Of a stretch of 64,000 nucleotides of DNA, positions 28,155 to 61,138 are shown piece by piece; within the stretch, counting starts at the first letter, position 1; every line of letters starts with the position of its first letter. Under the pieces are notes generated by a model that was given only the letters and a program-made list of their open reading frames with translations, had not been told where the DNA came from and ran no database searches. Position numbers and translations under genes: made by a program. The stretch is from Phycisphaerae bacterium (GTDB lineage Bacteria; Planctomycetota; Phycisphaerae; UBA1845): contig JAJDDY010000027.1 of NCBI GenBank assembly GCA_029260075.1, positions 126,086 to 190,085 on the forward strand, written 5' to 3'.

Positions 28155-29282
28155 TCACTTCCTGCGCATGCGGAGCAACGCCAGGAAGGTCGGCACACCA
28201 ATGATGGCGGTCACGACGCCTATTGGGAGCGTCGCACTGCCCAAGTGTCGACCGGTCACCCAACCGGCCAACCGCATGCTGAGCTGCGCCGACCAATCGC
28301 AGATGATCAAGAACGCCCCCCCGGCAAATGCCGATATCGGAAGCAGCAAACGGCAATCCCGTCCAAAGAGCAGCGCCACAATGTGGGGAACGACAAGCCC
28401 AACAAATCCTATCGGCCCGCACTTCGCCACAACCCCGGCCGTCGCCAGCGTGCAGCACAACACGCACACGGCTTGCAACGCACCGACGTTCACGCCGCGA
28501 GCCTCGGCCAATTCGTCACCCAAGCGATACTGATTTAGGGCCCGCCCGCTGAGCACAAGCACAACCCAAGCAGGAACCACAAGCGGTAACAGCGACGTGA
28601 CCTCAAGCGGACCGACGGGGTCGAGCGAGCCCATCATCCACCGCACCATGGCGAACGTCTGCCGTTCGTCCGAAACCGCGGTCACCAACATCATCATCGC
28701 CGAGCAGAACAGACCCATCGTCACGCCAGCGAGAAGAAGTTCGTTAGAGGTCAGACGACGGGAGCCACGACCGATGCTGTACACGACCGCTACCACACCG
28801 ACCGCGCCGACAAACGCACTAAGTGACAGGCAGGATATCCCCAGAAGCGTGAGCTGCCAACCAAGACGAATCGCTACCAACGCCCCGAGTGATCCGCCGC
28901 TGGCAATACCGAGCGTATACGGCGTGGCCAAGGCGTTACGGAACAAAACCTGAAACGTCGCACCGCACAATGCTAGCGTGATGCCGACCTGAAGAGCGAG
29001 CAGCGTCCTGGGAAACCGTAAATCGAAAATGGCCTCGGCCGCCTGAACGAACCCCTGGCGCTCGGACTCCGAAATCCGCCCATCGCCGTCGAAGTCGGCC
29101 GAGGGTCGGCCGCGAAGTTCGTCGGCGCTGATCTCGATCCCGAGCTTGGCTCGCCATGCATCACGCCATCCGCACATCGACGATTCGGTCCCGATGCCCG
29201 GACTCAGCAAGATGAGCACGAGCAATACCGACCCGCAACCACCCACTCGAACGAAGTAAGTCTGGCGAGAAAGAGGATTCAT
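28155..29282 (-). CDS. FecCD/BtuC-family ABC import permease (iron-siderophore/cobalamin type) with an EF-hand-like loop insertion
   Basis: FecCD-family TM core. ATGA start/stop overlap with the upstream ATPase gene supports the M61 start. DFDGDGRISESE 12-residue canonical EF-hand loop near the N-terminus. Confidence 0.82.
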   Translation of the reverse strand: MNPLSRQTYFVRVGGCGSVLLVLILLSPGIGTESSMCGWRDAWRAKLGIEISADELRGRPSADFDGDGRISESERQGFVQAAEAIFDLRFPRTLLALQVGITLALCGATFQVLFRNALATPYTLGIASGGSLGALVAIRLGWQLTLLGISCLSLSAFVGAVGVVAVVYSIGRGSRRLTSNELLLAGVTMGLFCSAMMMLVTAVSDERQTFAMVRWMMGSLDPVGPLEVTSLLPLVVPAWVVLVLSGRALNQYRLGDELAEARGVNVGALQAVCVLCCTLATAGVVAKCGPIGFVGLVVPHIVALLFGRDCRLLLPISAFAGGAFLIICDWSAQLSMRLAGWVTGRHLGSATLPIGVVTAIIGVPTFLALLRMRRK

Positions 29283-30097
29283 GTCGATTCGTCTTCCGTG
29301 GGCGCCAACGGTACGAGCCATGCAACGTCTGGTGCGTCCGGCAAGTGCATCGCGGTCATGCGAACATGGTACACCGGTTCGAGCACCTCCGGACAAACGA
29401 CCGTGGACGGAACACCGTCGGCGATGCTGCGTCCGTCGGACAGCAGCAGAATATGCGAGCAATAGCGCGCGGCGAGATTCACATCGTGCGTCACGACCAC
29501 AACGCTCAGCCCGTCGACGTCTGCTCGCTCGCGGAGGATTCCGAACATGGCCAGTTGGTGATGCAAGTCGAGCGACGCGGTGGGCTCATCAAGAAGCAAC
29601 ATTTGCGGCTCTTGCGCGAGCGCCGCCGCGAGATGAACGCGCTGCGTCTCACCGCCGGACAGGGTGGCCAAGTGTCGATCGCGAAAAGTGTCCGTGCGCG
29701 TAACCACCATCGCGCGGGCGGCGATCTCGTGGTCGTCGGCTGACTCGAACAGACCCATCGAACGATGAGGGAAACGGCCCATGAGCACCACGTCACCGGC
29801 GGTCAGATCAAGATCGCCCGGCGGATGTTGAGGCACGAACGCCATGCGCCGCGCCCGCGTTCGGCGCGGCAGCGCGCTCAGCGAGTCGCCTCCGAACCGA
29901 ATCGTCCCCGACGTCGGCTGCGCAAGCCCGGCCATAAGCCGAAGCAGCGTACTCTTGCCCGCTCCGTTGGGTCCAACGATTCCCCAGCACTCGCCCGGGC
30001 GAACGGTGAGATCGATCGGACCGAGAAAATCAGGCCGCGTCGGAAAGCCAAACCGAACCGCCTCAAGGGAAAGCATGACGTGGCCGTCAGGGTCCAA
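29279..30097 (-). CDS. ABC transporter ATP-binding protein (FecE/BtuD-like)
   Basis: Walker A GPNGAGKST, signature LSGGETQR, Walker B LLLDEP. Confidence 0.9.
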   Translation of the reverse strand: MDPDGHVMLSLEAVRFGFPTRPDFLGPIDLTVRPGECWGIVGPNGAGKSTLLRLMAGLAQPTSGTIRFGGDSLSALPRRTRARRMAFVPQHPPGDLDLTAGDVVLMGRFPHRSMGLFESADDHEIAARAMVVTRTDTFRDRHLATLSGGETQRVHLAAALAQEPQMLLLDEPTASLDLHHQLAMFGILRERADVDGLSVVVVTHDVNLAARYCSHILLLSDGRSIADGVPSTVVCPEVLEPVYHVRMTAMHLPDAPDVAWLVPLAPTEDEST

Positions 30098-31025
30098 CGC
30101 CGTCCTCCGGGTGTAAGATGCGAGAAATCTTTTCGATCACACCGACAATCCGCGGCGAGGGGATCAGACTGTTGTTGTCGGTGATGAAGTGCAAACGACC
30201 CTGGGCGATGGCTGGGATGGCTGAATACTTCGCCCATTGATGACGCATCTGCCGGTCGAGCGCTGGCGTCATGGTCACCTCGGGCATTAGTTCGATGATC
30301 ACCTCCGGGCGTTTGGCCAGAATGGCTTCGAGGCTGACCTGTGGATAGCGAAGGTCCAAATCGCCAAAGACGTTCACGCCGCCGGCGACCTCGACGAGTT
30401 CGCCGAGAAACATGCCACGCCCGGCCGTCAGAAGATCAGCGAGTCGATCGGGTTGACGCATCGTGGTAAGAAAAACACGAGGCTTCTTTCGACCGGCCAC
30501 GCGGCGGCGGATGGCGGCGAGTTGGTCGTGCATTTTTTTGGCAAGCGAGTCGGCCTCCTCGGTCAAACCGAGTCGGTTGCCCAAGTCGAGCACGGTTCGC
30601 GTGATGTCGGCCAGTGTCTCCGTGTCGTCGCGGTAGAGGTCGATGCCATGTCGGCGGCACAGACTCTCGATGGCTTCGCTTCGACCGCGCAGGACCACGA
30701 GGTCCGGTCGCAACGTGATGATTTTTTCAAGATCGGGATCGATGAACCCCCCGACGAGCGGCTTATGCTTCAGCTCGGGCGGATAGACACAATACTTGCT
30801 CGCCCCAACGATTCGGTCACAAGCACCAAGCGCACAAATAATCTCAGCCGCGTTCGGAGCGATGGTGATGATGCGTTTCGGAATTCTTTCTGCCGATGAT
30901 CCGTCCGACTGCGCTAGGCACGGTGTAGGCACAACCGAAAGGACCACCGAGACCACGGGTAAGCAAAGCCGCCACAGCCAGCGGCTGCGCGAGAACCGTG
31001 ATAAGCGAGATCGATCCGAGATCAT
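30087..31025 (-). CDS. Periplasmic substrate-binding protein of iron-siderophore/B12 ABC importer (FecB/BtuF-like)
   Basis: IITIAPNAAEIICALGA...LRPDLVVL cluster-8 SBP motifs. Signal peptide from MISDRSRLSR... (start trimmed). Confidence 0.82.
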   Translation of the reverse strand: MISDRSRLSRFSRSRWLWRLCLPVVSVVLSVVPTPCLAQSDGSSAERIPKRIITIAPNAAEIICALGACDRIVGASKYCVYPPELKHKPLVGGFIDPDLEKIITLRPDLVVLRGRSEAIESLCRRHGIDLYRDDTETLADITRTVLDLGNRLGLTEEADSLAKKMHDQLAAIRRRVAGRKKPRVFLTTMRQPDRLADLLTAGRGMFLGELVEVAGGVNVFGDLDLRYPQVSLEAILAKRPEVIIELMPEVTMTPALDRQMRHQWAKYSAIPAIAQGRLHFITDNNSLIPSPRIVGVIEKISRILHPEDGVGP

Positions 31026-31117
31026 GCGGCGAATCGTACCGCATTCACCGGACGCTTCCAATTTCGATTGCTTGTTGGTGTTCCTCGGGGAGCAATCGAC
31101 GACGGTGCATGCGACAG

Positions 31118-32884
31118 TCAGGATTCCCGCACCAAGCACACGTCCTGCACACTTCGTCCGCAGATGCGGGAGACGCCGATCGTGGCGTTTGGTTTTTCGG
31201 GGTCGCCGGGCGTCCAGCAGATGAGTCGATCGCGTAGGTCGTTGGTGGCGATGACCAAATCAGCGGCCACCTCGACGCGGCGCAGGGTCTGTCCGCCGGC
31301 TTCGTAGCGGCAGGAGAAGCTGTCGCCAAGCACGCGGGCGTGAACGTGGAGCGACGTATCGCTGTAGACCAAGCGGCGTACGCCGTGCGTCGACAAGTGC
31401 CAGATGGATTCCACCGCCCGCTGCGCGCCCGTGTGAATACGCTCCACACGGTCCGCAGAGTCCGAAGACCAGAACAGCACATCGCCGTCGCGGTTGCCGG
31501 CGAACAGGCCATCGGTTGTCGGGCAAAGGGCGGAAACCGTCGACACGCTGCCGGTGAAGACGCGGGACGGTTCGTCACCGACGTCATCGACGCGAACGCA
31601 ATGTACGTTGTCGTCGATGCTGCAATACAAATTGCCGTCGAGCATCGCCACGCCGCGCACGGCCTTGGCGTTCTTGGTTTTTGCTGAAAGGCGGTACCGA
31701 ACGTCGCCCGGCTTGTTGACGTTCCATTCGCACAACCCGAGTTCGGAATGGGACGCGAAGACCCGATCGCCCACAGCCACCACCGCGTTGAACCCGCCTT
31801 GCACCGACGGCGTGCCCTCGACGACGAGCGTCAGGTCCGGCGTTGACGCGTCTAGCGGCAGGCGATAGACCCCTGTCGACGCACCGAGCCAGAGCATCGG
31901 CGTGCCATCTGTTGCCACTGCGGATTGCGTCGATCGAACGCCACCGACTCCCCCCGCGATTTGTACACGTCGAGCCGGTTCGTCGAACGTCGACGGGTCG
32001 AAGAAGAGCAATTCGTCACCGGCGGCTACGACAACCCAGCGGGTGCGATCAGCCACCGGCTCGTTGGCGAAGAGCGCCGCGTAAAGCTCGCCGCGTTCGC
32101 GCTCTGCAAACGTCTTGACCAAATCGGGCAGGGCCACGTCGGGCGATGCGGAGGCCATGTCGCGAAGTCGCCCGAGCAATTGACCGAGGTGATCCAAGTG
32201 TTCAGCCTGAGCGCGATCGAGCGCCTGGCGCACTTCGTGCTCGGCCTCATGCACAGCCCGTCGGCGCGATGCATCGGCGTGGGCGTCTTGCACGTGTCTA
32301 AGCGTCTGCGAGTCGAACCGGACTTCGGGCGCACCCTCCAAGACCATGCCGGCAGCAAACAGCGGCGCCTGAACACCATCCGCAAGTGCGTTCGAAACCT
32401 GTTGAGCAACACGCCCGCCGACAAGCTCTGCACCGTCGTGCGCCGCCGCCACCTTGGCCAGCGCGGTCCGCAGCGCGGGTTCTAAGTATCGGGTGAGCCC
32501 CTTGGCTTGGGCTACGCGGTGACTACCCACTACGGATTTGGAAAAAGAAACGAGTTCGCCCCGCTCCGGCATTACACTGACGTGCAATGTTCCAACGGCT
32601 TTGCACGAGAAGCGATCGCGCGTGACGACGCCGTCTTCGTCGAAACTAATCTCGATCGGTGTGACGCGGAAGAACAGCACGTCTTCGACGTCGGCGCCAT
32701 CCACGACGCCGCCAGCTTCGACGACCACTTGGTCACCTGTCGATCGGCGTACGAGCGCGGCCCACTGAGCCGGAAGATCGAGCGAGCGAGAAAGCAGTCC
32801 GAACAGTTCCGACGCCTCCACGTGCAACGCCACGTTGGACGCCTCTTGAAAAAACAGACGTGGGTCAAACTTGCCCGAGGTCAT
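31118..32884 (-). CDS. Hypothetical protein with C-terminal beta-propeller-like region
   Basis: 588-aa ORF with coding-like composition. No family recognised. Confidence 0.55.
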   Translation of the reverse strand: MTSGKFDPRLFFQEASNVALHVEASELFGLLSRSLDLPAQWAALVRRSTGDQVVVEAGGVVDGADVEDVLFFRVTPIEISFDEDGVVTRDRFSCKAVGTLHVSVMPERGELVSFSKSVVGSHRVAQAKGLTRYLEPALRTALAKVAAAHDGAELVGGRVAQQVSNALADGVQAPLFAAGMVLEGAPEVRFDSQTLRHVQDAHADASRRRAVHEAEHEVRQALDRAQAEHLDHLGQLLGRLRDMASASPDVALPDLVKTFAERERGELYAALFANEPVADRTRWVVVAAGDELLFFDPSTFDEPARRVQIAGGVGGVRSTQSAVATDGTPMLWLGASTGVYRLPLDASTPDLTLVVEGTPSVQGGFNAVVAVGDRVFASHSELGLCEWNVNKPGDVRYRLSAKTKNAKAVRGVAMLDGNLYCSIDDNVHCVRVDDVGDEPSRVFTGSVSTVSALCPTTDGLFAGNRDGDVLFWSSDSADRVERIHTGAQRAVESIWHLSTHGVRRLVYSDTSLHVHARVLGDSFSCRYEAGGQTLRRVEVAADLVIATNDLRDRLICWTPGDPEKPNATIGVSRICGRSVQDVCLVRES

Positions 32885-33088: not shown

Positions 33089-34222
33089 TTACGCCAGCCC
33101 TCGCCCCGCGAACTGCTCGAAACGCAAGAGGTCAGCCTGAGCGACTGACGGGGCCGAGTTCTCGATCACACTCATTATATCCTTCATGGCGATCGATCGC
33201 GCATCACCGCCCGAAATCGCCTCCATAAAGGGTAATTGTGCGGAACGCTGCGCGATATTTTTGATATCCGCCCCAGTGTAGCCGTTCAACCGGTCGCAAA
33301 GGGCGCCGAAATCGACATCATCGGACAATGGTCGATCGCCGAAATAGATCTCCAGCAAGCGAAAGACGGCCGGGGCGTCCGGGACGCCGACGTAAATCTT
33401 CGAGTCCAACCGACCGGGGCGGAGCATGGCTTCATCCAACATCCAGGGTCGATTCGTCGCGCCCACGAACAACAGCGGACGGTCCGACTGACGATCGAAA
33501 CCCTCAAGCTCCTGAAGGATTTGCGGGACGACGCGCTGCATGACCGTGGAGCCACCGCTCTTTCGCTTGGGCACCAGCGCCTCTGTCTCATCGAGGAAGA
33601 TGACGGCGGTGTCTTCTGCCTTGGCTGTTTCGAAAAGCTTGCGAATGTTTTGCTCGGCTTCGCCGACCCACTTGCTAAGCATTTGCGCCGGGCTGACCAC
33701 GAAGAACGTCGCGTCGATTTCGTGGGCGATTGCTTTGGCGATCATCGTCTTGCCCGTGCCGGGCGGGCCGTAGAGCAATACACCCCCGCCGCTGTTGATG
33801 CCATATTTCTGGGCCAATTCGCGGTGGGCGAAGGGGTAGATCATCTTGAGGCGAATCTCCTCCTTCACGTCTTCAAGACCGGCGATGTCGTCGAAGCCGA
33901 TATTGGGCTTGTCCTTAACGATCCAATCGGAAGCGTCGGCGCCGGAGTCGTCTTCCTTTTCGCGCTGCCCGCCGGACCCACCGCGCCGCCCCTTCCGGCC
34001 GCCGGTGTGAAGGCGATCGCAATCCTTCGCCAGATCAATCAACTCGGTCGCGAGCTCTTCATGCTGACGCCGGGCTTCACCCGTCTTGGCGCCCTCGGCC
34101 ATCTCAAGCATGCACTCAGCCGCATCGACCAAATACGACTTGGCCGCAAGGTAGTCCCCACCCTTGTAGGCGTCGACACCCTTGCTCTTTAGTCGTTCAA
34201 ATGTTGTGAAAGAAACTGTCAT
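33089..34222 (-). CDS. Vps4-like AAA+ ATPase (meiotic clade) with N-terminal MIT domain
   Basis: N-terminal three-helix MIT-like region (KGVDAYKGGDYLAAKSYLVDAAECMLEMAEG...). Walker A GPPGTGKT, Walker B IFLDE. C-terminal helix DLLRFEQFAGRG closely resembles Vps4 C-terminal LLKQEQFTRDFG. Confidence 0.85.
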   Translation of the reverse strand: MTVSFTTFERLKSKGVDAYKGGDYLAAKSYLVDAAECMLEMAEGAKTGEARRQHEELATELIDLAKDCDRLHTGGRKGRRGGSGGQREKEDDSGADASDWIVKDKPNIGFDDIAGLEDVKEEIRLKMIYPFAHRELAQKYGINSGGGVLLYGPPGTGKTMIAKAIAHEIDATFFVVSPAQMLSKWVGEAEQNIRKLFETAKAEDTAVIFLDETEALVPKRKSGGSTVMQRVVPQILQELEGFDRQSDRPLLFVGATNRPWMLDEAMLRPGRLDSKIYVGVPDAPAVFRLLEIYFGDRPLSDDVDFGALCDRLNGYTGADIKNIAQRSAQLPFMEAISGGDARSIAMKDIMSVIENSAPSVAQADLLRFEQFAGRGLA

Positions 34223-34279
34223 AAAGAGTAGTCAATACATGCCGCCAGCCTAGCATGGCTCCCCCTAACCCCACAATTC

Positions 34280-34888
34280 CTACTTCTGCTTCTCACCCTG
34301 CTGTTTCAGTGAATTCAACTCCGCACGCAAGCCAGCGAGTTTTCCTAGTTCGCGTTGATGCTCGGCCTCCGTCTCGGCTTCGATCATGCGGTCGATTTCT
34401 TCATCGCCCAAGGCCTCGCCCGCCTTGCCCATTTCTGCATCCTGCGACGCGATGTCTTCGACGCTGTCGAGGAACATGTCCATGCGTTCCTCCATAGTCT
34501 GCGACTGCGCCATCGCCTTTTCCCAATCGCCCTGCGTCTTGACGAGGTCGGTCTCGCCGAAGAGGCGGCCGATTTCGGTGGCCATAATGCCCATGGCCTG
34601 TGCGAAGTCTGCCGACGCCTCCGCCTGACGTTTGATCAAGAGTGCGTTCTTCACCGACAGGAGTTGCCGTTCGAGCATTTTTCGGATCGTGGCCGTCTTC
34701 TTGAGGGAGTTGCGAATGAACTGATATTGGCTGGTGTCGCCAATCTTCTTGGCGTGGCGGGCGTTCTTGATGAATTCGTCTTGAAACTTGCCCTGCTCAC
34801 GAATGGACTTCTCGATCCGACGGATACCCTGCCGAATCTTGATGTCCCGCTCGATGCGGCGTTCTTCCGGTGATTTGAATAGTCCCAT
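34280..34888 (-). CDS. Snf7/ESCRT-III-like protein (basic N-terminal helical hairpin, acidic C-terminus with MIM-like motif)
   Basis: 202 aa, MGLF start. Basic N half, acidic C half. C-terminal EEIDRMIEAE...LGKLAGLRAELNSLK resembles CHMP MIM1. Adjacent to the MIT-AAA ATPase. Confidence 0.75.
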   Translation of the reverse strand: MGLFKSPEERRIERDIKIRQGIRRIEKSIREQGKFQDEFIKNARHAKKIGDTSQYQFIRNSLKKTATIRKMLERQLLSVKNALLIKRQAEASADFAQAMGIMATEIGRLFGETDLVKTQGDWEKAMAQSQTMEERMDMFLDSVEDIASQDAEMGKAGEALGDEEIDRMIEAETEAEHQRELGKLAGLRAELNSLKQQGEKQK

Positions 34889-34984
34889 GGTGTCAGTTCC
34901 CGTTACTTGCCTACGAGGTCAAACCAACGAAGTGCCGCGTCTACGTCCCTCAGTCGCCCAAAGCGCGTCCAAGATGCATCTTTC

Positions 34985-35053
34985 CGAGCCGCGACCGTGA
35001 CGGAGCGGTCGGGGATCGTGGGCGAAGACCGCTCCCTTACGGTCGCGGCTCGG
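34985..35053. repeat. Family-A repeat, copy 5 (core only; 3' of pspC-like gene)
   Basis: CCGAGCCGCGACCGTGACGGAGCGGTCGGGGATCGTGGGCGAAGACCGCTCCCTTACGGTCGCGGCTCGG. Confidence 0.85.
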
Positions 35054-35115: not shown

Positions 35116-35322
35116 CTAATAATACTCCCGCTCAGGGATCAACAGCCACAGGATGATGTAGATGAGGATTCCCGGAAACGCCGCGGAAAAAATCGACGCC
35201 AAGACATAGACGACCCGCACAACGGTCGGATCGATCCCGGCGTATTCTCCGAGACCGCCGCACACACCGGCGACGTTCCGATCAATAACGCTTCTTCGTA
35301 ATGGTTGAGAGAGATTTCCCAT
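35116..35322 (-). CDS. PspC-domain small membrane protein
   Basis: RRSVIDRNVAGVCGGLGEYAGIDPTVVRVVYV + TM is a canonical PspC domain. Start trimmed; the track ORF N-terminus is translation of a repeat element. Confidence 0.7.
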   Translation of the reverse strand: MGNLSQPLRRSVIDRNVAGVCGGLGEYAGIDPTVVRVVYVLASIFSAAFPGILIYIILWLLIPEREYY

Positions 35323-35375
35323 CGCTACATCCGCTTCGCCTGTTTTTCCTAAGGGCGTGTTCGAGACGCCATTTG

Positions 35376-35445
35376 CCGAGCCGCGCCCGTAAGGAAGCTG
35401 TCGGAGATCGTGGGCGAAGACCGCTCCCTTACGATCGCGGCTCCG
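35376..35445. repeat. Family-A repeat, copy 6 (core; 5' of pspC-like gene; spacer nearly identical to copy 5)
   Basis: CCGAGCCGCGCCCGTAAGGAAGCTGTCGGAGATCGTGGGCGAAGACCGCTCCCTTACGATCGCGGCTCCG. Confidence 0.85.
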
Positions 35446-35545
35446 TTCGACGAAACCCTTCATAGGCACCCTCTAAGTCTTGAGCCTGCCGTCGGTCGGG
35501 TTCATTGATCGCACTATGTCTTTGATCTACGCATTGACGAATCCA

Positions 35546-36151
35546 TCATCCCTCCGGCGTCGCGTGTCGCTCGCGTACGGTGCGGTCGGCTTCGTCGAAT
35601 CCTTCCGTCGCGTCAACTATGACACCGGTATCCATCTTATCCCATACGTTGAGCACGCTCTGACCGGCTGACGTCATACCGTCTGCACCCTCGTCCACGC
35701 CGGCGCCGATCGAAAGAATTTCGTCCAAACGCTCGTGATAGATTTCCGCGCGAACCGAGTCCGACTCGATCAGATTGCTGATGCGCAAGAGATCGGTCTC
35801 GCTGACCAAGCCGAGCTTGTTGGACTGCCCGGCGCGGTCCGCGTTTTCGCGCAGCATACGCAAACGCGACACGGTAAGCATTTCCTTGCTACGAATGTTA
35901 AGCTGCCGGGCGAGCATGAGTTGCTCGGTCGTGCGCATCTCGAATTCCTGAGCGAGAACGCGCCGCAATTCGGGCGTCTTTTCCGTCGAACCTCGATCGA
36001 ACAGCTTCTGCTTGTCGGCTGCGATTTTCTCGACCTTGCGCAGAAGCTGGTTGCGATCCTTCTCTAGCAACAACTCCTGCCGGCGCAACTCAGCCCTCGT
36101 CATTTGCGACAGGGGCTTCTTGCGTTTAGTTAGCCATTCAAGAAACGCCAT
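35546..36151 (-). CDS. Snf7/ESCRT-III-like protein (second paralogue)
   Basis: 201 aa. Basic coiled-coil N half (LRRQELLLEKDRNQLLRKVEKIAADKQKL) and acidic C half, similar in architecture to 34280-34888. Confidence 0.65.
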   Translation of the reverse strand: MAFLEWLTKRKKPLSQMTRAELRRQELLLEKDRNQLLRKVEKIAADKQKLFDRGSTEKTPELRRVLAQEFEMRTTEQLMLARQLNIRSKEMLTVSRLRMLRENADRAGQSNKLGLVSETDLLRISNLIESDSVRAEIYHERLDEILSIGAGVDEGADGMTSAGQSVLNVWDKMDTGVIVDATEGFDEADRTVRERHATPEG

Positions 36152-36232: not shown

Positions 36233-37702
36233 TCATGTCGGCTCGGCATCAGCGCGACGCGATTGATCCGCATCGTGATCTGACGACGGCGGTTCCTCGA
36301 CCGGATCTCTTGCAACCCCACGCTCGGTCGCCACTGGTGGTATCGGCGTCGCAGCCTGCTTCGGTGCACTCGATGCGTCAGCCACCGCCGGCGCGTCGTC
36401 GGCTTCAAACTCCTTGAGTATCGCCAGCTCGTCGTCGCTAATCAGCGTCTCTTCGATTCCGGTCTCCAAACTTCCAACCAACTCCGCGTCAGCTTGGAGC
36501 GTTTCGAGCATTTCCTCAGCCTTCACGGCGTTCTCAGTCAGCGTTTCCGTATCGGGGAGGCTGGCCATTTCGCCCTGCTGAATGAGCGTGAGGTTGTGGA
36601 TGTCCGTGCTGATGATGTCGATCTGTTTGTTGAGCATCGCAGCCGTCGTGTTCTGCCGGCCGATGTCCTTACGCAATTGGGCGAGTTGTGCGGCGATGCG
36701 ACGTTTGGGCACCTGCGACTTGGCGGCTTTGCCCTGCTCGAACAGGTTGGCCTCTTTCTTTTCCAACTGCCCGATGTCTTCATAGATGCGGTCGCGTCGC
36801 TGAGCGAGGAGCGCGCGGCGTTCAGCCAGCACGTTGATCTTCTCCCCCTCGTCGCCCTCGCTACCGAACAACTGCTTGATGCGATCGATGACATTCATCG
36901 ATTTTCTCTCCTGCGACGCCACCGGGGCGCCTCGAAACAATAGAAGTTCACCGTCTTTGTCCGCCACGTGCAGCTCTTGATCGGCCGACGCCAGTTCACG
37001 CATTCCGTCGCGTACGATGTGCTGCGGGAGACCCATCTTCCGCGCCACCGACGACGCGGACAGACCGCCCGTGAGCAAATCGGCGCTATGCTCCTCAACG
37101 ACGCGGCGGACACGCTGCGTCTTCTCCGTCGTGCCTTCCGGGTCGAACAGCTTGAGCAGACGCGCGTCCGTGTGTTCAGCCGACGAACTCGTTTGCCATC
37201 CGCCGTGCCCGTCCGGTTCCACAAGCACGACCGACACGTTAGGCATATCGATCTTGGCCGCCTTGGCTTCGTCGGTAAAACCCGTGGGGCTGCACACGCC
37301 GACAACCTGCGGCACGCGGGCATCGGCGGTCAATCGCCGAACATGATCGACGAGTTCACCAAGCCCGATCGCAGGGGCGTCGCCATCATCGTCGGACGCA
37401 AAGTGGCTCAGCGGCGACAACACCGTCGCTATCGCTGCTCCGGTCTCACGTTTCGTAATCAGGAAATGCCGTTCGTAACCGCGTAGGACGATTCGGCGAT
37501 TGGCCGGCAGCGACTTGAGCCTCTCGCGGTCGTAGATTCGATTGGACGCCAGCAGAGCACGCACGCGGTCACTCTGATCATTGCGCACCAACTGCCAGAT
37601 CGACCCGCGAAGCTGTTTCCCCTTCGCGGCTTCGAAATTCGTCAACACGCCCGACAGAAAGTCGGTCTCTAGTTGAAAGGCTCGCTGAGCGTCTGTTGTC
37701 AT
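36233..37702 (-). CDS. Fusion protein: unknown ~265-aa N-terminal domain with wHTH-like segment + C-terminal Snf7/ESCRT-III-like domain
   Basis: C-terminal 220 aa (from MNVIDRIKQLFG) repeat the Snf7-like basic/acidic helical pattern. No stop separates it from the N-terminal domain. Confidence 0.65.
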   Translation of the reverse strand: MTTDAQRAFQLETDFLSGVLTNFEAAKGKQLRGSIWQLVRNDQSDRVRALLASNRIYDRERLKSLPANRRIVLRGYERHFLITKRETGAAIATVLSPLSHFASDDDGDAPAIGLGELVDHVRRLTADARVPQVVGVCSPTGFTDEAKAAKIDMPNVSVVLVEPDGHGGWQTSSSAEHTDARLLKLFDPEGTTEKTQRVRRVVEEHSADLLTGGLSASSVARKMGLPQHIVRDGMRELASADQELHVADKDGELLLFRGAPVASQERKSMNVIDRIKQLFGSEGDEGEKINVLAERRALLAQRRDRIYEDIGQLEKKEANLFEQGKAAKSQVPKRRIAAQLAQLRKDIGRQNTTAAMLNKQIDIISTDIHNLTLIQQGEMASLPDTETLTENAVKAEEMLETLQADAELVGSLETGIEETLISDDELAILKEFEADDAPAVADASSAPKQAATPIPPVATERGVARDPVEEPPSSDHDADQSRRADAEPT

Positions 37703-38013: not shown

Positions 38014-39057
38014 TCATTGAGTAACGCGTCGTAGATCGTGACCGCACAAAATACAAAACCGATCGTTCGCGTGGACGCTGGCGCTGCACTCCGAACACGC
38101 CAACACGCGATCGACCACCTGCCGTCCGCAGTAGATACAAAACTGATCGTCGTCATGAACCGACCGCCCACAACCCACGCACTTCGTACCGCACGGCACT
38201 GCCACCGGCGGGGGTGGTGGTGGTGGTGGCACGGACGTGTGATCATCAGGCGAAAGCGCCGCGAGCATCTCGCGCGTCGAAGCAAACCGCCGATCCAACC
38301 GCGTGTAGCAGCGACGGAATACGTCGTCCAAGTACGGCGGCACGTCGCGACGTAGTGAGCCGGGCGTGTCTCCGCCCTGCGGTCGCTCGCCAGTTAGCAT
38401 TTCGCACAAAAGCACGCCGCAGGAGTACAGATCGCTCCGTCCGTCGAGCGGATGACCCGCCTTCTGTTCCGGCGACATGTACGCCAGCGTGCCGGCGATG
38501 CTCCGCCCCTCTTCCGCCGCCATGCTTCCGCTCTGCATAATCGACTGCGTCGTGACCCCGCCCACATGACCAAGCCCGAAATCCGTCACCCGCACGGACT
38601 TCTCCGTGATCGTCGCCAAGTCCGACGGCGGAAGGTGCAACAGGATGTTCGCCGGCTTGATGTCGCGGTGAATCACTCCGCCATCATGGGCCACGGTAAG
38701 CGCCGACAACACACCGCGCATGATCGTCAACGCCGCCGAGATCGGCATCGCTGACTTGTATTCGTCGATAATCTCGCGCACCGACGGACCGTTCACGTAT
38801 TCCATGATGAGGTAAGGCGGCTCGGCGTATGGATCCAAGTCGATCGCGCGAACGATGTTGTGGTGTTTGAGGCCGTGAACAGCCACACCCTCGCGCTGCA
38901 GGTTGCGCACGTATTGCGGATCGGTCGGAATCTTGATGGCGACAAGATCGTCGAACACATGGTGCCGCGCACGCCAGACCACACCGAAGCTTCCAGCGCC
39001 AACACGCGTCTCAAGCACGTAGTTGTTGATCCGATCACCTTCGTGTTGGGCTGACAT
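38014..39057 (-). CDS. Ser/Thr protein kinase with poly-Pro linker and two C-terminal zinc ribbons
   Basis: GxGxxG (VGAGSFGVV), VAIK, HRDIKPANILL, DFG, SPE motifs. PPPPPPPP. CxxC...CxxC x2. Confidence 0.88.
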   Translation of the reverse strand: MSAQHEGDRINNYVLETRVGAGSFGVVWRARHHVFDDLVAIKIPTDPQYVRNLQREGVAVHGLKHHNIVRAIDLDPYAEPPYLIMEYVNGPSVREIIDEYKSAMPISAALTIMRGVLSALTVAHDGGVIHRDIKPANILLHLPPSDLATITEKSVRVTDFGLGHVGGVTTQSIMQSGSMAAEEGRSIAGTLAYMSPEQKAGHPLDGRSDLYSCGVLLCEMLTGERPQGGDTPGSLRRDVPPYLDDVFRRCYTRLDRRFASTREMLAALSPDDHTSVPPPPPPPPVAVPCGTKCVGCGRSVHDDDQFCIYCGRQVVDRVLACSECSASVHANDRFCILCGHDLRRVTQ

Positions 39058-50717: not shown

Positions 50718-50815
50718 TGCGACGAACCGAGCCGCGCCCGTGAGGAAGCGGTGTTCACGCGCGAGCCCGGATCGCTTCCACCCGGGCGCGGCTCGGCAAG
50801 AGGCTTTTCGCACAA
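50718..50815. repeat. Family-A repeat, copy 9 (subfamily A2; ~90% identical over ~100 bp to copy 11)
   Basis: GCGACGAACCGAGCCGCGCCCGTGAGGAAGCGGTGTTCACGCGCGAGCCCGGATCGCTTCCACCCGGGCGCGGCTCGGCAAGAGGCTTTTCGCAC. Confidence 0.85.
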
Positions 50816-57345: not shown

Positions 57346-57445
57346 GCGACGAACCGAGCCGCGACCGTGAGGAAGTGGTTTTCACGCGCGAGCCCGGATC
57401 GCTTCCTTACGGGCGCGGCTCGGTAAGAGGCTTATCGCACACGTT
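57346..57445. repeat. Family-A repeat, copy 11 (subfamily A2)
   Basis: GCGACGAACCGAGCCGCGACCGTGAGGAAGTGGTTTTCACGCGCGAGCCCGGATCGCTTCCTTACGGGCGCGGCTCGGTAAGAGGCTTATCGCAC. Confidence 0.85.
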
Positions 57446-58796: not shown

Positions 58797-58868
58797 ACTC
58801 GAGTCGCGCCCGTAAGGAAGCGGTCCGGTTTCGCGGGCGAACACCACTCCCTTACGGTCGCGGCTCGG
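58797..58868. repeat. Family-A repeat, copy 12 (left arm variant TCGAGTCGCG)
   Basis: GACTCGAGTCGCGCCCGTAAGGAAGCGGTCCGG...CACTCCCTTACGGTCGCGGCTCGG. Confidence 0.75.
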
Positions 58869-58988
58869 TTTGTCACAACCTTTCTTGTACACCCTTTTGG
58901 CGATTTTCGCTCTCTACAGATACGCGACGCAAATTCGCGGCCGGATTCGTTGAGACGTGACTAGACACCAGTCTTGTCTAACAGGCTG

Positions 58989-61025: not shown

Positions 61026-61045
61026 TCCCAGAGGGCCGTTACGAA

Positions 61046-61105
61046 CCGAGCCGCGACCGTAAGGGAGCGGTCGTTCGCCTCGCACATGAACCGCTTCCTA
61101 ACGGA
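61046..61105. repeat. Family-A repeat, copy 13 (short spacer)
   Basis: CCGAGCCGCGACCGTAAGGGAGCGGTCGTTCGCC...CCGCTTCCTAACGGACGCGGCTCGG. Confidence 0.8.
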
Positions 61106-61138
61106 CGCGGCTCGGAAAGACCCATTCTGGACACGCTC

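What the first reader, a model, noticed from the sequence alone, without database searches (positions are those of the whole stretch)
33089..34888. MIT domain and matching MIM1-like tail on adjacent genes
The ATPase N-terminus (residues ~5-70, KGVDAYKGGDYLAAKSYLVDAAECMLEMAEGAKTGEARRQHEELATELIDLAKDC) has the spacing of a MIT three-helix bundle. The neighbouring Snf7-like protein ends with ...EEIDRMIEAETEAEHQRELGKLAGLRAELNSLKQQGEKQK. Within this, L-x2-LR-x2-L-x2-LK follows the MIM1 consensus ((D/E)xxLxxRLxxL(K/R)) that Vps4/VTA1 MIT domains bind on CHMP1/2. This argues the two proteins interact directly, as in eukaryotic/archaeal ESCRT-III-Vps4 pairs.
Basis: partly seen in the sequence, partly recalled or inferred. 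Interest (0 to 1): 0.75.

Follow-up and report, generated by a model that had tools for sequence, protein, structure and literature searches.

The report
Bacterial ESCRT-III with MIT-domain AAA ATPase
A Phycisphaerae (Planctomycetota) bacterium encodes an ESCRT-III-type membrane-remodelling protein next to a Vps4-like ATPase that has the matching docking domain, a pairing that recent reviews say exists only in archaea and eukaryotes.

Summary

The adjacent 202-aa protein (34280-34888) belongs to an unannotated family that is Snf7/CHMP-like and not PspA-like. After a variable linker, its tail holds a nearly invariant motif, L184-x2-L187-R188-x2-L191-x2-L194-K195.

The motif matches only 4 of the 6 MIM1 consensus positions: the Arg is displaced and the acidic residue is missing. 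A sister subclade of the same family, however, ends in (D/E)xxVxxRLxxL(R/K), which is canonical MIM1 apart from Val at position 0.

The ESCRT-III-like gene lies next to MIT-like AAA ATPases in Phycisphaerae, other Planctomycetota and Sumerlaeota. PspC, an SPFH/beta-propeller protein and a Ser/Thr kinase are part of the Phycisphaerae cluster.

Direct MIT-tail binding could not be modelled and remains an inference. No paper describing this system was found.

The parts
33089..34222 (-). 377-aa Vps4-like AAA ATPase: MIT-like N-domain, Gly/Arg/acidic linker, one AAA cassette and a C-terminal helix
   Evidence: Pfam AAA E 9e-40, AAA_lid_3, and Vps4_C at 22.4 bits against a cutoff of 21.3. Pore loop SKWVGEA and NRPW resemble Vps4. 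RPGRLD resembles Cdc48/PAN.
34001..34210 (-). MIT-fold three-helix domain, ATPase residues 5-74
33110..33199 (-). C-terminal helix region of the ATPase (residues 342-371), Vps4_C-like
   Evidence: Pfam PF09336 at 22.4 bits, cutoff 21.3
34280..34888 (-). 202-aa ESCRT-III (Snf7/CHMP)-family protein
   Evidence: The family profile hits CHMP3 at 2.3e-5, CHMP2A at 7e-5, Snf7 at 0.008 and CdvB2 at 0.035. 30 of 53 members hit Pfam Snf7, best E 1.1e-7. The N-terminus MGLFKS resembles CHMP N-termini.
34304..34339 (-). MIM1-like C-terminal motif LAGLRAELNSLK (residues 184-195), the proposed MIT-binding helix
   Evidence: Invariant or nearly invariant in 81 orthologues. 4 of 6 MIM1 positions match. A sister subclade has canonical MIM1, with Val at position 0, at the same place.
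34373..34405 (-). Conserved motif DEEIDRMIEAE (residues 162-172), which aligns with helix alpha5 of CHMP3
   Evidence: Family-wide consensus vsDeEIDrLI. HMMER aligns it to CHMP3 ...EID, residues 160-162.
34406..34438 (-). Variable linker (residues 151-161) that separates the ESCRT-III core from the conserved tail
   Evidence: Mean identity 0.35 and entropy 1.87 bits, against 0.7-0.95 identity on either side
35116..35469 (-). PspC-domain membrane protein. The ORF start is probably over-extended; the likely start is M49 at 35325.
   Evidence: Pfam PspC E 1.5e-22, residues 56-113. The N-terminal 40 residues overlap a repeated element.
35546..36151 (-). 201-aa conserved helical protein with an invariant C-terminal FDEADRxVR. 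ESCRT-III membership is not established.
   Evidence: Conserved in 70 of 80 loci. It gives no ESCRT-III hit. A homologue lies in the distant cluster L088.
36233..37702 (-). 489-aa protein. The C-terminal half (36236-36895) is possibly ESCRT-III-like. The gene is a fusion of two genes that are separate in other Planctomycetota.
   Evidence: hhalign against the g202 family gives E 0.0033, probability 9.6%, collinear over 138 columns. The split genes are seen in L091 and L092.
31118..32884 (-). 588-aa protein with an SPFH/Band_7 N-domain and a probable beta-propeller, conserved downstream of the ATPase
   Evidence: Pfam Band_7 at 26 bits, cutoff 23.6. Present in 49 of 80 loci. Counterparts exist in L087, L091 and L092.
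38014..39057 (-). Ser/Thr protein kinase with a double zinc ribbon, conserved next to the cluster
   Evidence: Pfam Pkinase E 1.5e-36 and DZR. Present in 63 of 80 loci. Kinases also lie beside the distant clusters L081, L090 and L091.

Best explanation
The window carries a bacterial ESCRT-III/Vps4-type membrane-remodelling module.

Proposed mechanism:
- The 202-aa protein is a Snf7/CHMP-family ESCRT-III subunit. It presumably polymerises on the cytoplasmic membrane, possibly anchored or regulated by the neighbouring PspC and SPFH proteins.
- Its core is followed by a flexible linker and a conserved C-terminal amphipathic helix, residues about 180-197.
- That helix is proposed to dock in the alpha2/alpha3 groove of the MIT domain at the N-terminus of the neighbouring AAA ATPase, as MIM1 helices of CHMP1/2/3 do with Vps4.
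- The ATPase hexamer would then pull subunits through its pore (pore loop KWVG) to remodel or disassemble the polymer.

Shown: the MIT fold (predicted structure), ESCRT-III family membership, strong constraint on the tail motif, and conserved gene linkage.

Inferred: polymerisation, the MIT-tail contact and its binding mode, ATP-driven disassembly, and the cellular process served.
For: MIT fold:
- AF2 model with pLDDT 89.9.
- Foldseek top hits are mostly MIT domains.
- hhalign against an MIT alignment gives E 1.9e-4 and places window I62 on VPS4A L64. The typed VPS4A sequence was confirmed identical to 2jq9_A.

ESCRT-III membership:
- The family profile hits CHMP3 (2.3e-5), CHMP2A, Snf7 and CdvB2.
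- 30 of 53 members hit Pfam Snf7.
- Some database members carry precomputed PF03357 hits.

Tail:
- A variable linker is followed by an invariant L187, R188, E190, L194, K195.
- 22 sequences of a sister subclade end in (D/E)xxVxxRLxxL(R/K). The motif occurs only in their tails, never in the body or in shuffled tails.

Gene linkage:
- The ATPase lies downstream on the same strand in 58 of 68 Phycisphaerae loci that have enough flank.
- 8 of 9 distant family members (19-46% identity) with readable neighbours lie beside one or two AAA ATPases that have helical N-domains.

ATPase:
- A rough NJ tree places the bacterial ATPases with Vps4, CdvC, katanin and spastin, excluding p97 D2, at 90% bootstrap.
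Against: - The window tail does not satisfy the MIM1 consensus. Glu replaces the key Arg at +3 and there is no acidic residue at -3.
- The window N-domain hits no Pfam MIT model. The same profile also hits single TPR repeats, so the domain could be a generic TPR-like adaptor.
- No complex model or binding data exist.
- The AAA module is roughly equally similar to p97 D2, PAN and CdvC by BLAST and NCBIfam scores. It has RPGRLD rather than the RRRFE of Vps4.
- In 10 of 68 loci no ATPase lies within 8 kb. The gap between the two genes often holds inserted genes, so co-transcription is not general.
- Other tails in the cluster are also conserved (g201 FDEADRxVR, g489 SDEELAILKEFE) and could be the real MIT ligands.
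Confidence: 0.6

Rival explanations
1. The ATPase does work on this ESCRT-III-like system, but its MIT domain recognises a different element. Candidates are the g201 or g489 tails, motif A (DEEIDRMIEAE) of g202, or PspC/SPFH. The C-terminal helix of g202 would then serve autoinhibition, polymer contacts or membrane binding. It could also bind a second, type-B ATPase encoded elsewhere.
For: g201 ends in an invariant FDEADRxVR. g489 carries a conserved SDEELAILKEFE. In other lineages two ATPases with different MIT-like N-domains flank the g202-like gene, so partner assignment is ambiguous. The window tail misses the MIM1 Arg.
Against: The C-terminal helix is the most strongly constrained part of the tail. 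In a sister clade it is canonical MIM1 with Val at position 0. MIT domains commonly bind several tail types, so this rival need not exclude the main explanation.
Confidence: 0.25
2. The N-domain is a generic TPR-like three-helix adaptor. The ATPase would be a Cdc48/PAN-like unfoldase for protein quality control, or part of a stress or defence response, with no specific ESCRT-III recognition.
Against: The TPR hits cover helices 1-2 only. Full-domain matches are to MIT domains. Gene linkage to the Snf7-family gene is kept across family members as low as 19-46% identical. No other cluster protein matches a defence family.
Confidence: 0.1
3. The cluster is a PspA/PspC-type envelope-stress system, and its resemblance to ESCRT-III/Vps4 is superficial.
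For: A PspC-domain gene lies in the cluster. [quoted passage not shown]
Against: The family profile hits CHMP, Snf7 and CdvB but no PspA or Vipp1 structure at E up to 10. Pfam PspA_IM30 does not appear among the top families by member count. PspC is absent from the equivalent clusters outside Phycisphaerae.
Confidence: 0.05

Closest known systems
Eukaryotic CHMP1/2/3 (Vps46/Vps2/Vps24) MIM1 tails bound by the VPS4 MIT domain
   Same: The best profile matches of the 202-aa family are CHMP3 and CHMP2A. The protein has an MGLF N-terminus, an alpha5-like EID motif and a C-terminal amphipathic helix after a linker. The ATPase has an MIT fold, a linker, one AAA cassette, a KW-G pore loop and a C-terminal helix. 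A sister subclade carries (D/E)xxVxxRLxxL(R/K).
   Different: The host is bacterial. The window tail has Glu at +3 and Leu at -3. There is no Vps4 beta-domain, and the SRH motif is RPGRLD rather than RRRFE. Neither protein in the window reaches Pfam MIT or Snf7 thresholds. The partners are PspC, SPFH and a kinase instead of ESCRT-I/II.
Archaeal Cdv / ESCRT-III-Vps4 operons (CdvB-CdvC)
   Different: CdvB binds CdvC through a proline-rich MIM2 (my own knowledge), whereas here the element is a helical MIM1-like one. There is no CdvA and no winged-helix domain. The NCBIfam CdvC score is 215 bits against a cutoff of 650.
Bacterial VPS4-like AAA+ ATPases reported by Ravi et al. 2024 (PMC11237479, Text S2.2)
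   Same: They report VPS4-like ATPases in Planctomycetes and other bacteria. They also note that some bacterial Snf7/PspA clade members lie next to AAA+ ATPases.
   Different: In their operons snf7 is 'displaced' by a TPR+6TM protein, or the Snf7 is membrane-anchored and paired with a two-domain ATPase. Here a soluble CHMP-like protein sits beside the MIT-AAA ATPase. No TPR+6TM gene was seen in the three g202-ATPase gaps that were read. I could not fetch their example protein to test whether it is the same family.
PspA/PspB/PspC phage-shock system
   Same: It combines a PspC-domain membrane protein with an ESCRT-III-superfamily polymer-forming protein.
   Different: The polymer protein here is Snf7-type and not PspA-type. 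The ATPase is a classical-clade MIT-AAA and not the sigma-54 activator PspF.
Katanin p60 and spastin (MIT-AAA enzymes of the meiotic clade)
   Different: Those enzymes sever microtubules. Nothing tubulin-related was seen in the cluster.

Membership tests
MIT domain (PF04212) | Asymmetric three-helix bundle of about 70-80 residues | tested here: met
MIT domain (PF04212) | Sequence match to the MIT profile | tested here: inconclusive
   The window N-domain gives no Pfam MIT hit, even at E up to 10. The orthologue profile hits the chitin synthase MIT domain 2mpk at E 9e-4 but also TPR repeats. hhalign against 7 MIT sequences gives E 1.9e-4 and probability 47%.
MIT domain (PF04212) | Binds ESCRT-III tail peptides in a helix groove | not testable with these tools
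MIM1 motif | Consensus (D/E)xxLxxRLxxL(K/R) | tested here: not met
   The window tail matches positions 0, +4, +7 and +8 only. Position +3 is Glu and position -3 is Leu. None of 120 close orthologues matches even the core with Arg at +3. 22 sequences of a sister subclade match with Val at position 0.
MIM1 motif | Lies at the extreme C-terminus of an ESCRT-III protein, after a flexible linker | tested here: met
   The motif is at residues 184-195 of 202 and follows the variable linker 151-161.
ESCRT-III / Snf7 (PF03357) | Sequence homology to Snf7/CHMP proteins | tested here: met
   The window protein alone gives no Pfam hit. The family profile hits CHMP3 at 2.3e-5, CHMP2A at 7e-5, Snf7 at 0.008 and CdvB2 at 0.035. 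30 of 53 members hit Pfam Snf7, best E 1.1e-7.
ESCRT-III / Snf7 (PF03357) | Helical hairpin core that polymerises on membranes | not tested
Vps4 / CdvC ATPase | Architecture: MIT, linker, a single AAA cassette and a C-terminal helix | tested here: met
   Pfam AAA, AAA_lid_3 and Vps4_C at 22.4 bits against 21.3. MIT fold.
Vps4 / CdvC ATPase | Meiotic-clade sequence signatures (pore loop SK[WY]xGE, N-PW, SRH RR[RF]xK) | tested here: inconclusive
   SKWVGEA and NRPW are present. The SRH is RPGRLD, as in Cdc48/PAN. BLAST scores are nearly equal: p97 D2 180, PAN 176, CdvC 170 and Vps4 169 bits.
Vps4 / CdvC ATPase | NCBIfam CdvC equivalog score | tested here: not met
   215.4 bits against a cutoff of 650.
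PspA / Vipp1 (PF04012) | Sequence homology to PspA/IM30 | tested here: not met
   No PspA or Vipp1 chain appears among PDB profile hits at E up to 10. PspA_IM30 is not among the top families by member count in the member scan.

The most novel reading that the evidence does not exclude
Planctomycetota, the only free-living bacteria known to divide without FtsZ (PMC12673574), and Sumerlaeota may possess a genuine ESCRT-III/Vps4 machine that uses the MIT-MIM1 recognition code. This machine could drive FtsZ-independent cytokinesis or the unusual membrane invaginations and uptake processes of these bacteria. If so, the ESCRT-III-Vps4 partnership either predates the split between archaea and bacteria or was transferred between domains as a working module.
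Probability: 0.12. Interest if true: 0.95.

Novelty: new variant of a known kind. Interest (0 to 1): 0.75.

Why it matters
[quoted passage not shown] They also state that a Vps4-like ATPase 'appears absent in bacteria' (PMC7619361).

This locus belongs to a conserved gene cluster whose ESCRT-III-like gene was found in 358 species-level genomes. The listed relatives are mainly Phycisphaerae and other Planctomycetota, with Sumerlaeota as well. The cluster pairs a CHMP-like ESCRT-III with MIT-AAA ATPases, and in one subclade the tail carries a near-canonical MIM1 motif.

If the proteins behave as their sequences suggest, three things follow:
- The energy-coupled ESCRT-III cycle is not exclusive to archaea and eukaryotes.
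- The MIT-MIM code is older or more mobile than thought.
- Planctomycetes, whose FtsZ-less division and complex membranes are unexplained, gain a concrete and testable candidate machinery.

Tried and rejected
- The Foldseek search with the whole-ATPase single-sequence model was uninformative. Only residues 1-75 were confident, and the AAA sequence signal dominated.
- The afdb50 library was not available.
- The search for related loci with the broad alignment failed for lack of a conserved stretch. The narrower alignment returned only close Phycisphaerae loci.
- ESCRT-III homology of the 201-aa protein and of the C-terminal half of the 489-aa protein was not established. PDB profile searches gave only noise or coiled coils, hhalign probabilities were 5% and 9.6%, and there were no Pfam Snf7 hits in window or distant counterparts.
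- A known anti-phage system was considered and rejected. PADLOC gave only generic AAA hits.
- A TPR+6TM partner, as in Ravi et al., was looked for and not seen in the three g202-ATPase gaps that were read.
- The promoter/terminator scan gave nothing above background.
- The charge-swap idea (MIT K66 paired with tail E190) rests only on a profile alignment and is offered as a hypothesis, not a result.
Full report
**Observation.** The minus strand between 31.1 and 39.5 kb carries a run of co-oriented genes:
- a 141-aa membrane protein;
- a Ser/Thr kinase with zinc ribbons (38014-39057);
- an 88-aa protein;
- a 489-aa protein (36233-37702);
- a 201-aa protein (35546-36151);
- a PspC-domain protein (35116-35469);
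- the 202-aa protein of the finding (34280-34888);
- the 377-aa AAA ATPase (33089-34222), 57 nt further on and in the same frame;
- a 588-aa protein with SPFH/Band_7 and a probable beta-propeller (31118-32884).

Both quoted peptides are present exactly as written. Close relatives all come from Phycisphaerae and other Planctomycetota metagenome-assembled genomes.

**Is the ATPase N-terminus an MIT domain?**
- Sequence profiles do not say so directly. Pfam finds AAA, AAA_lid_3 and a borderline Vps4_C, but no MIT.
- A profile of 21 orthologous N-domains hits single consensus TPR repeats through helices 1-2. Over the whole domain it hits only the MIT domain of an oomycete chitin synthase (2mpk, E 9e-4).
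- Structure prediction is clearer. Even without an alignment, AlphaFold2 gives residues 1-80 a pLDDT of 89.9 and pTM of 0.77, with helices 5-20, 24-44 and 48-74.
- Most of the top 30 Foldseek hits are MIT domains, led by VPS4B MIT-IST1, with TM-scores mostly 0.7-0.87.
- hhalign of the N-domain profile against seven MIT sequences gives E 1.9e-4 and probability 47%. It puts window I62-D63 on VPS4A L64-D65.
- I conclude that the MIT fold is well supported. Homology to MIT domains is likely but weakly supported by sequence.

**Is the neighbour an ESCRT-III protein?**
- The window protein has no Pfam or NCBIfam hit, and its relatives are annotated as hypothetical.
- A search of 1.84 billion cluster representatives found 303 relatives.
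- An alignment of 53 full-length members, 23-68% identical to the query, hits CHMP3 (2.3e-5), CHMP2A (7e-5), Snf7 (0.008), CdvB2 (0.035) and CHMP1B in the PDB. It hits no PspA or Vipp1.
- Scanned one by one, 30 of the 53 hit Pfam Snf7, best E 1.1e-7. Several database members carry precomputed PF03357 hits.
- The family consensus begins MxLFKSKxER, which resembles CHMP N-termini. Its vsDeEIDrLI motif is aligned by HMMER to helix alpha5 of CHMP3.
- The family is therefore Snf7/CHMP-type and not PspA-type.
- The same could not be shown for the 201-aa protein or for the C-terminal half of the 489-aa protein. 'Three Snf7-like paralogues' remains unproven.

**The tail.**
- In 81 Phycisphaerae orthologues, residues 151-161 are variable (identity 0.35). 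Residues 162-202 are conserved again.
- D166, E172, A175, E180, L187, R188, E190, L194, K195 and E199 are invariant. This is the signature of a short linear binding motif.
- Against the MIM1 consensus (D/E)xxLxxRLxxL(K/R), with L187 as position 0, the tail matches at 0, +4, +7 and +8. It has Glu at +3 and Leu at -3.
- The strict and core regular expressions do not match. None of 120 close orthologues has Arg at +3.
- The family context rescues the idea. 22 sequences of a sister subclade, including P0343, P0352 and P0139, end in (D/E)x(K/R)VxxRL(D/E)xL(R/K). This is canonical MIM1 with Val at position 0. It is found only in tails, never in the protein body or in shuffled tails.
- The remaining members carry DxEIxxGLxxIExeL, which has the same hydrophobic spacing.
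- The C-terminal helix is thus a family-wide feature that sits where MIM1 sits, and the Phycisphaerae version is a derived variant.
- The profile alignment places a Lys (K66) where VPS4A has E68. This would fit a charge-swapped contact with tail E190. It is a hypothesis only.

**Gene linkage.**
- A scan of one genome per species found 358 genomes with a relative. The best 80 are all Phycisphaerae or unclassified Planctomycetota.
- These loci share the order kinase, 489-aa gene, 201-aa gene, PspC, 202-aa gene, ATPase, SPFH gene.
- The ATPase follows on the same strand in 58 of 68 loci that have at least 5 kb of flank. The gap ranges from 22 to 3693 nt, and only 17 loci have a gap under 150 nt. 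In the three loci whose longer gaps were read, they hold MNT/HEPN toxin-antitoxin-like pairs and other inserts.
- For nine distant family members (19-46% identity) with readable neighbours, eight lie directly beside AAA ATPase genes.
- In other Planctomycetota and a Sumerlaeota genome the gene sits between two ATPases. The upstream 'type B' has SKYFGES and SRFEK, as in Vps4 and katanin. The downstream 'type A' has SKWVG and RPGRFD and is the orthologue of the window ATPase. Both have helical N-domains. An SPFH/propeller protein follows, and a kinase is often nearby.

**What kind of ATPase is it?**
- Sequence scores are nearly tied between Cdc48 D2, PAN and CdvC/Vps4.
- The enzyme has the Vps4-like pore loop and the NRPW motif, but a Cdc48-like RPGRLD.
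- A rough NJ tree puts all the bacterial ATPases with Vps4, CdvC, katanin and spastin, to the exclusion of p97 D2, with 90% bootstrap.
- I therefore describe it as Vps4-like in architecture and probably related to the meiotic clade, not as a proven Vps4 orthologue.

**Literature.**
- Makarova et al. [quoted passage not shown]
- A 2025 review says that a Vps4-like ATPase appears absent in bacteria (PMC7619361).
- Ravi et al. 2024 come closest. They report VPS4-like ATPases transferred to bacteria, including Planctomycetes, but with snf7 displaced by a TPR+6TM gene. They also report some divergent bacterial Snf7/PspA proteins next to other AAA+ ATPases (PMC11237479).
- A 2025 review of a century of Planctomycetota research mentions neither ESCRT, Snf7 nor Vps4. 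It stresses that these bacteria divide without FtsZ (PMC12673574).
- Four further searches found no description of this system.

**Verdict.**
- The MIT fold is supported.
- ESCRT-III membership is supported at the family level.
- The tail motif is under strong constraint and has canonical MIM1 relatives.
- The gene pairing is kept across family members as low as 19-46% identical.
- Not shown: the physical MIT-tail contact, which tail binds which ATPase, polymerisation, and the cellular role.
- I rate the specific MIM1-type docking at about 0.6. I rate the broader statement, that this is an ATPase-coupled bacterial ESCRT-III system, at about 0.8.

Noticed in passing
window 34223-34279; loci L001 8606-9712, L002 8606-10673, L004 1915-5508: The short gap between the ESCRT-III-like gene and the ATPase is an insertion hot spot in other Phycisphaerae. 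Gaps reach 3.7 kb. In the three gaps read they hold nucleotidyltransferase (MNT) plus HEPN toxin-antitoxin-like pairs and other ORFs.
   Followed up: partly
window 34984-35053; related copies near 50724-50813, 57351-57443, 58797-58883 and 61031-61135: A REP-like inverted repeat (27-nt arms, 93% complementary, 16-nt loop) lies between PspC and the 202-aa gene. Its translation recurs at several other places in the window. As a result the listed PspC ORF start is probably over-extended, and the likely start is M49 at 35325.
   Followed up: partly
window 36233-37702; L091 3623-6042; L092 3318-5560: The 489-aa gene appears to be a fusion of two genes that are separate in other Planctomycetota. One encodes an approximately 500-aa protein with a weak MerR-like hit. 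The other encodes a 250-291-aa helical protein that starts VSLLxKIKxLFG.
   Followed up: partly
L086 432-1853 (P0220); also P0222, P0223, P0227, P0240, P0243, P0245, P0248, P0266 and P0269: Relatives of the 202-aa ESCRT-III-like domain occur as the N-terminal part of 430-510-aa proteins. In P0220 the rest of the protein is an FtsK/SpoIIIE ATPase domain, making it a direct fusion of an ESCRT-III-like domain to a different motor.
   Followed up: no
L089 700-3594; L090 6587-9694; L091 6709-9858; L092 6218-9342: Outside Phycisphaerae the ESCRT-III-like gene is flanked by two different AAA ATPases with helical N-domains. The upstream one has SKYFGES and SRFEK, and the downstream one has SKWVG and RPGRFD. 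Phycisphaerae have PspC in the upstream position.
   Followed up: partly
window 35546-36151 (residues about 183-193): The 201-aa protein ends in an invariant EAFDEADRxVR motif, preceded by a conserved VMxIWDKMDxG. This is another candidate tail ligand and is unlike any MIM type I could match.
   Followed up: no
window 38014-39057; L081 4348-5817; L090 2565-6500 and 9954-13961; L091 12760-15060: Ser/Thr protein kinases, often with double zinc ribbons, accompany the cluster across distant lineages. This suggests phosphoregulation of the system.
   Followed up: no
L092 12281-13333: An MreB-like gene lies about 1 kb downstream of one Planctomycetota cluster. This is anecdotal, but relevant to the speculation about cell division.
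   Followed up: no
window 28155-31139: Downstream of the cluster, on the same strand, lie an ABC importer permease (FecCD-like by eye), an ABC ATPase and a periplasmic binding protein. They appear unrelated to the finding. They were read only from the ORF translations and were not scanned.
   Followed up: no
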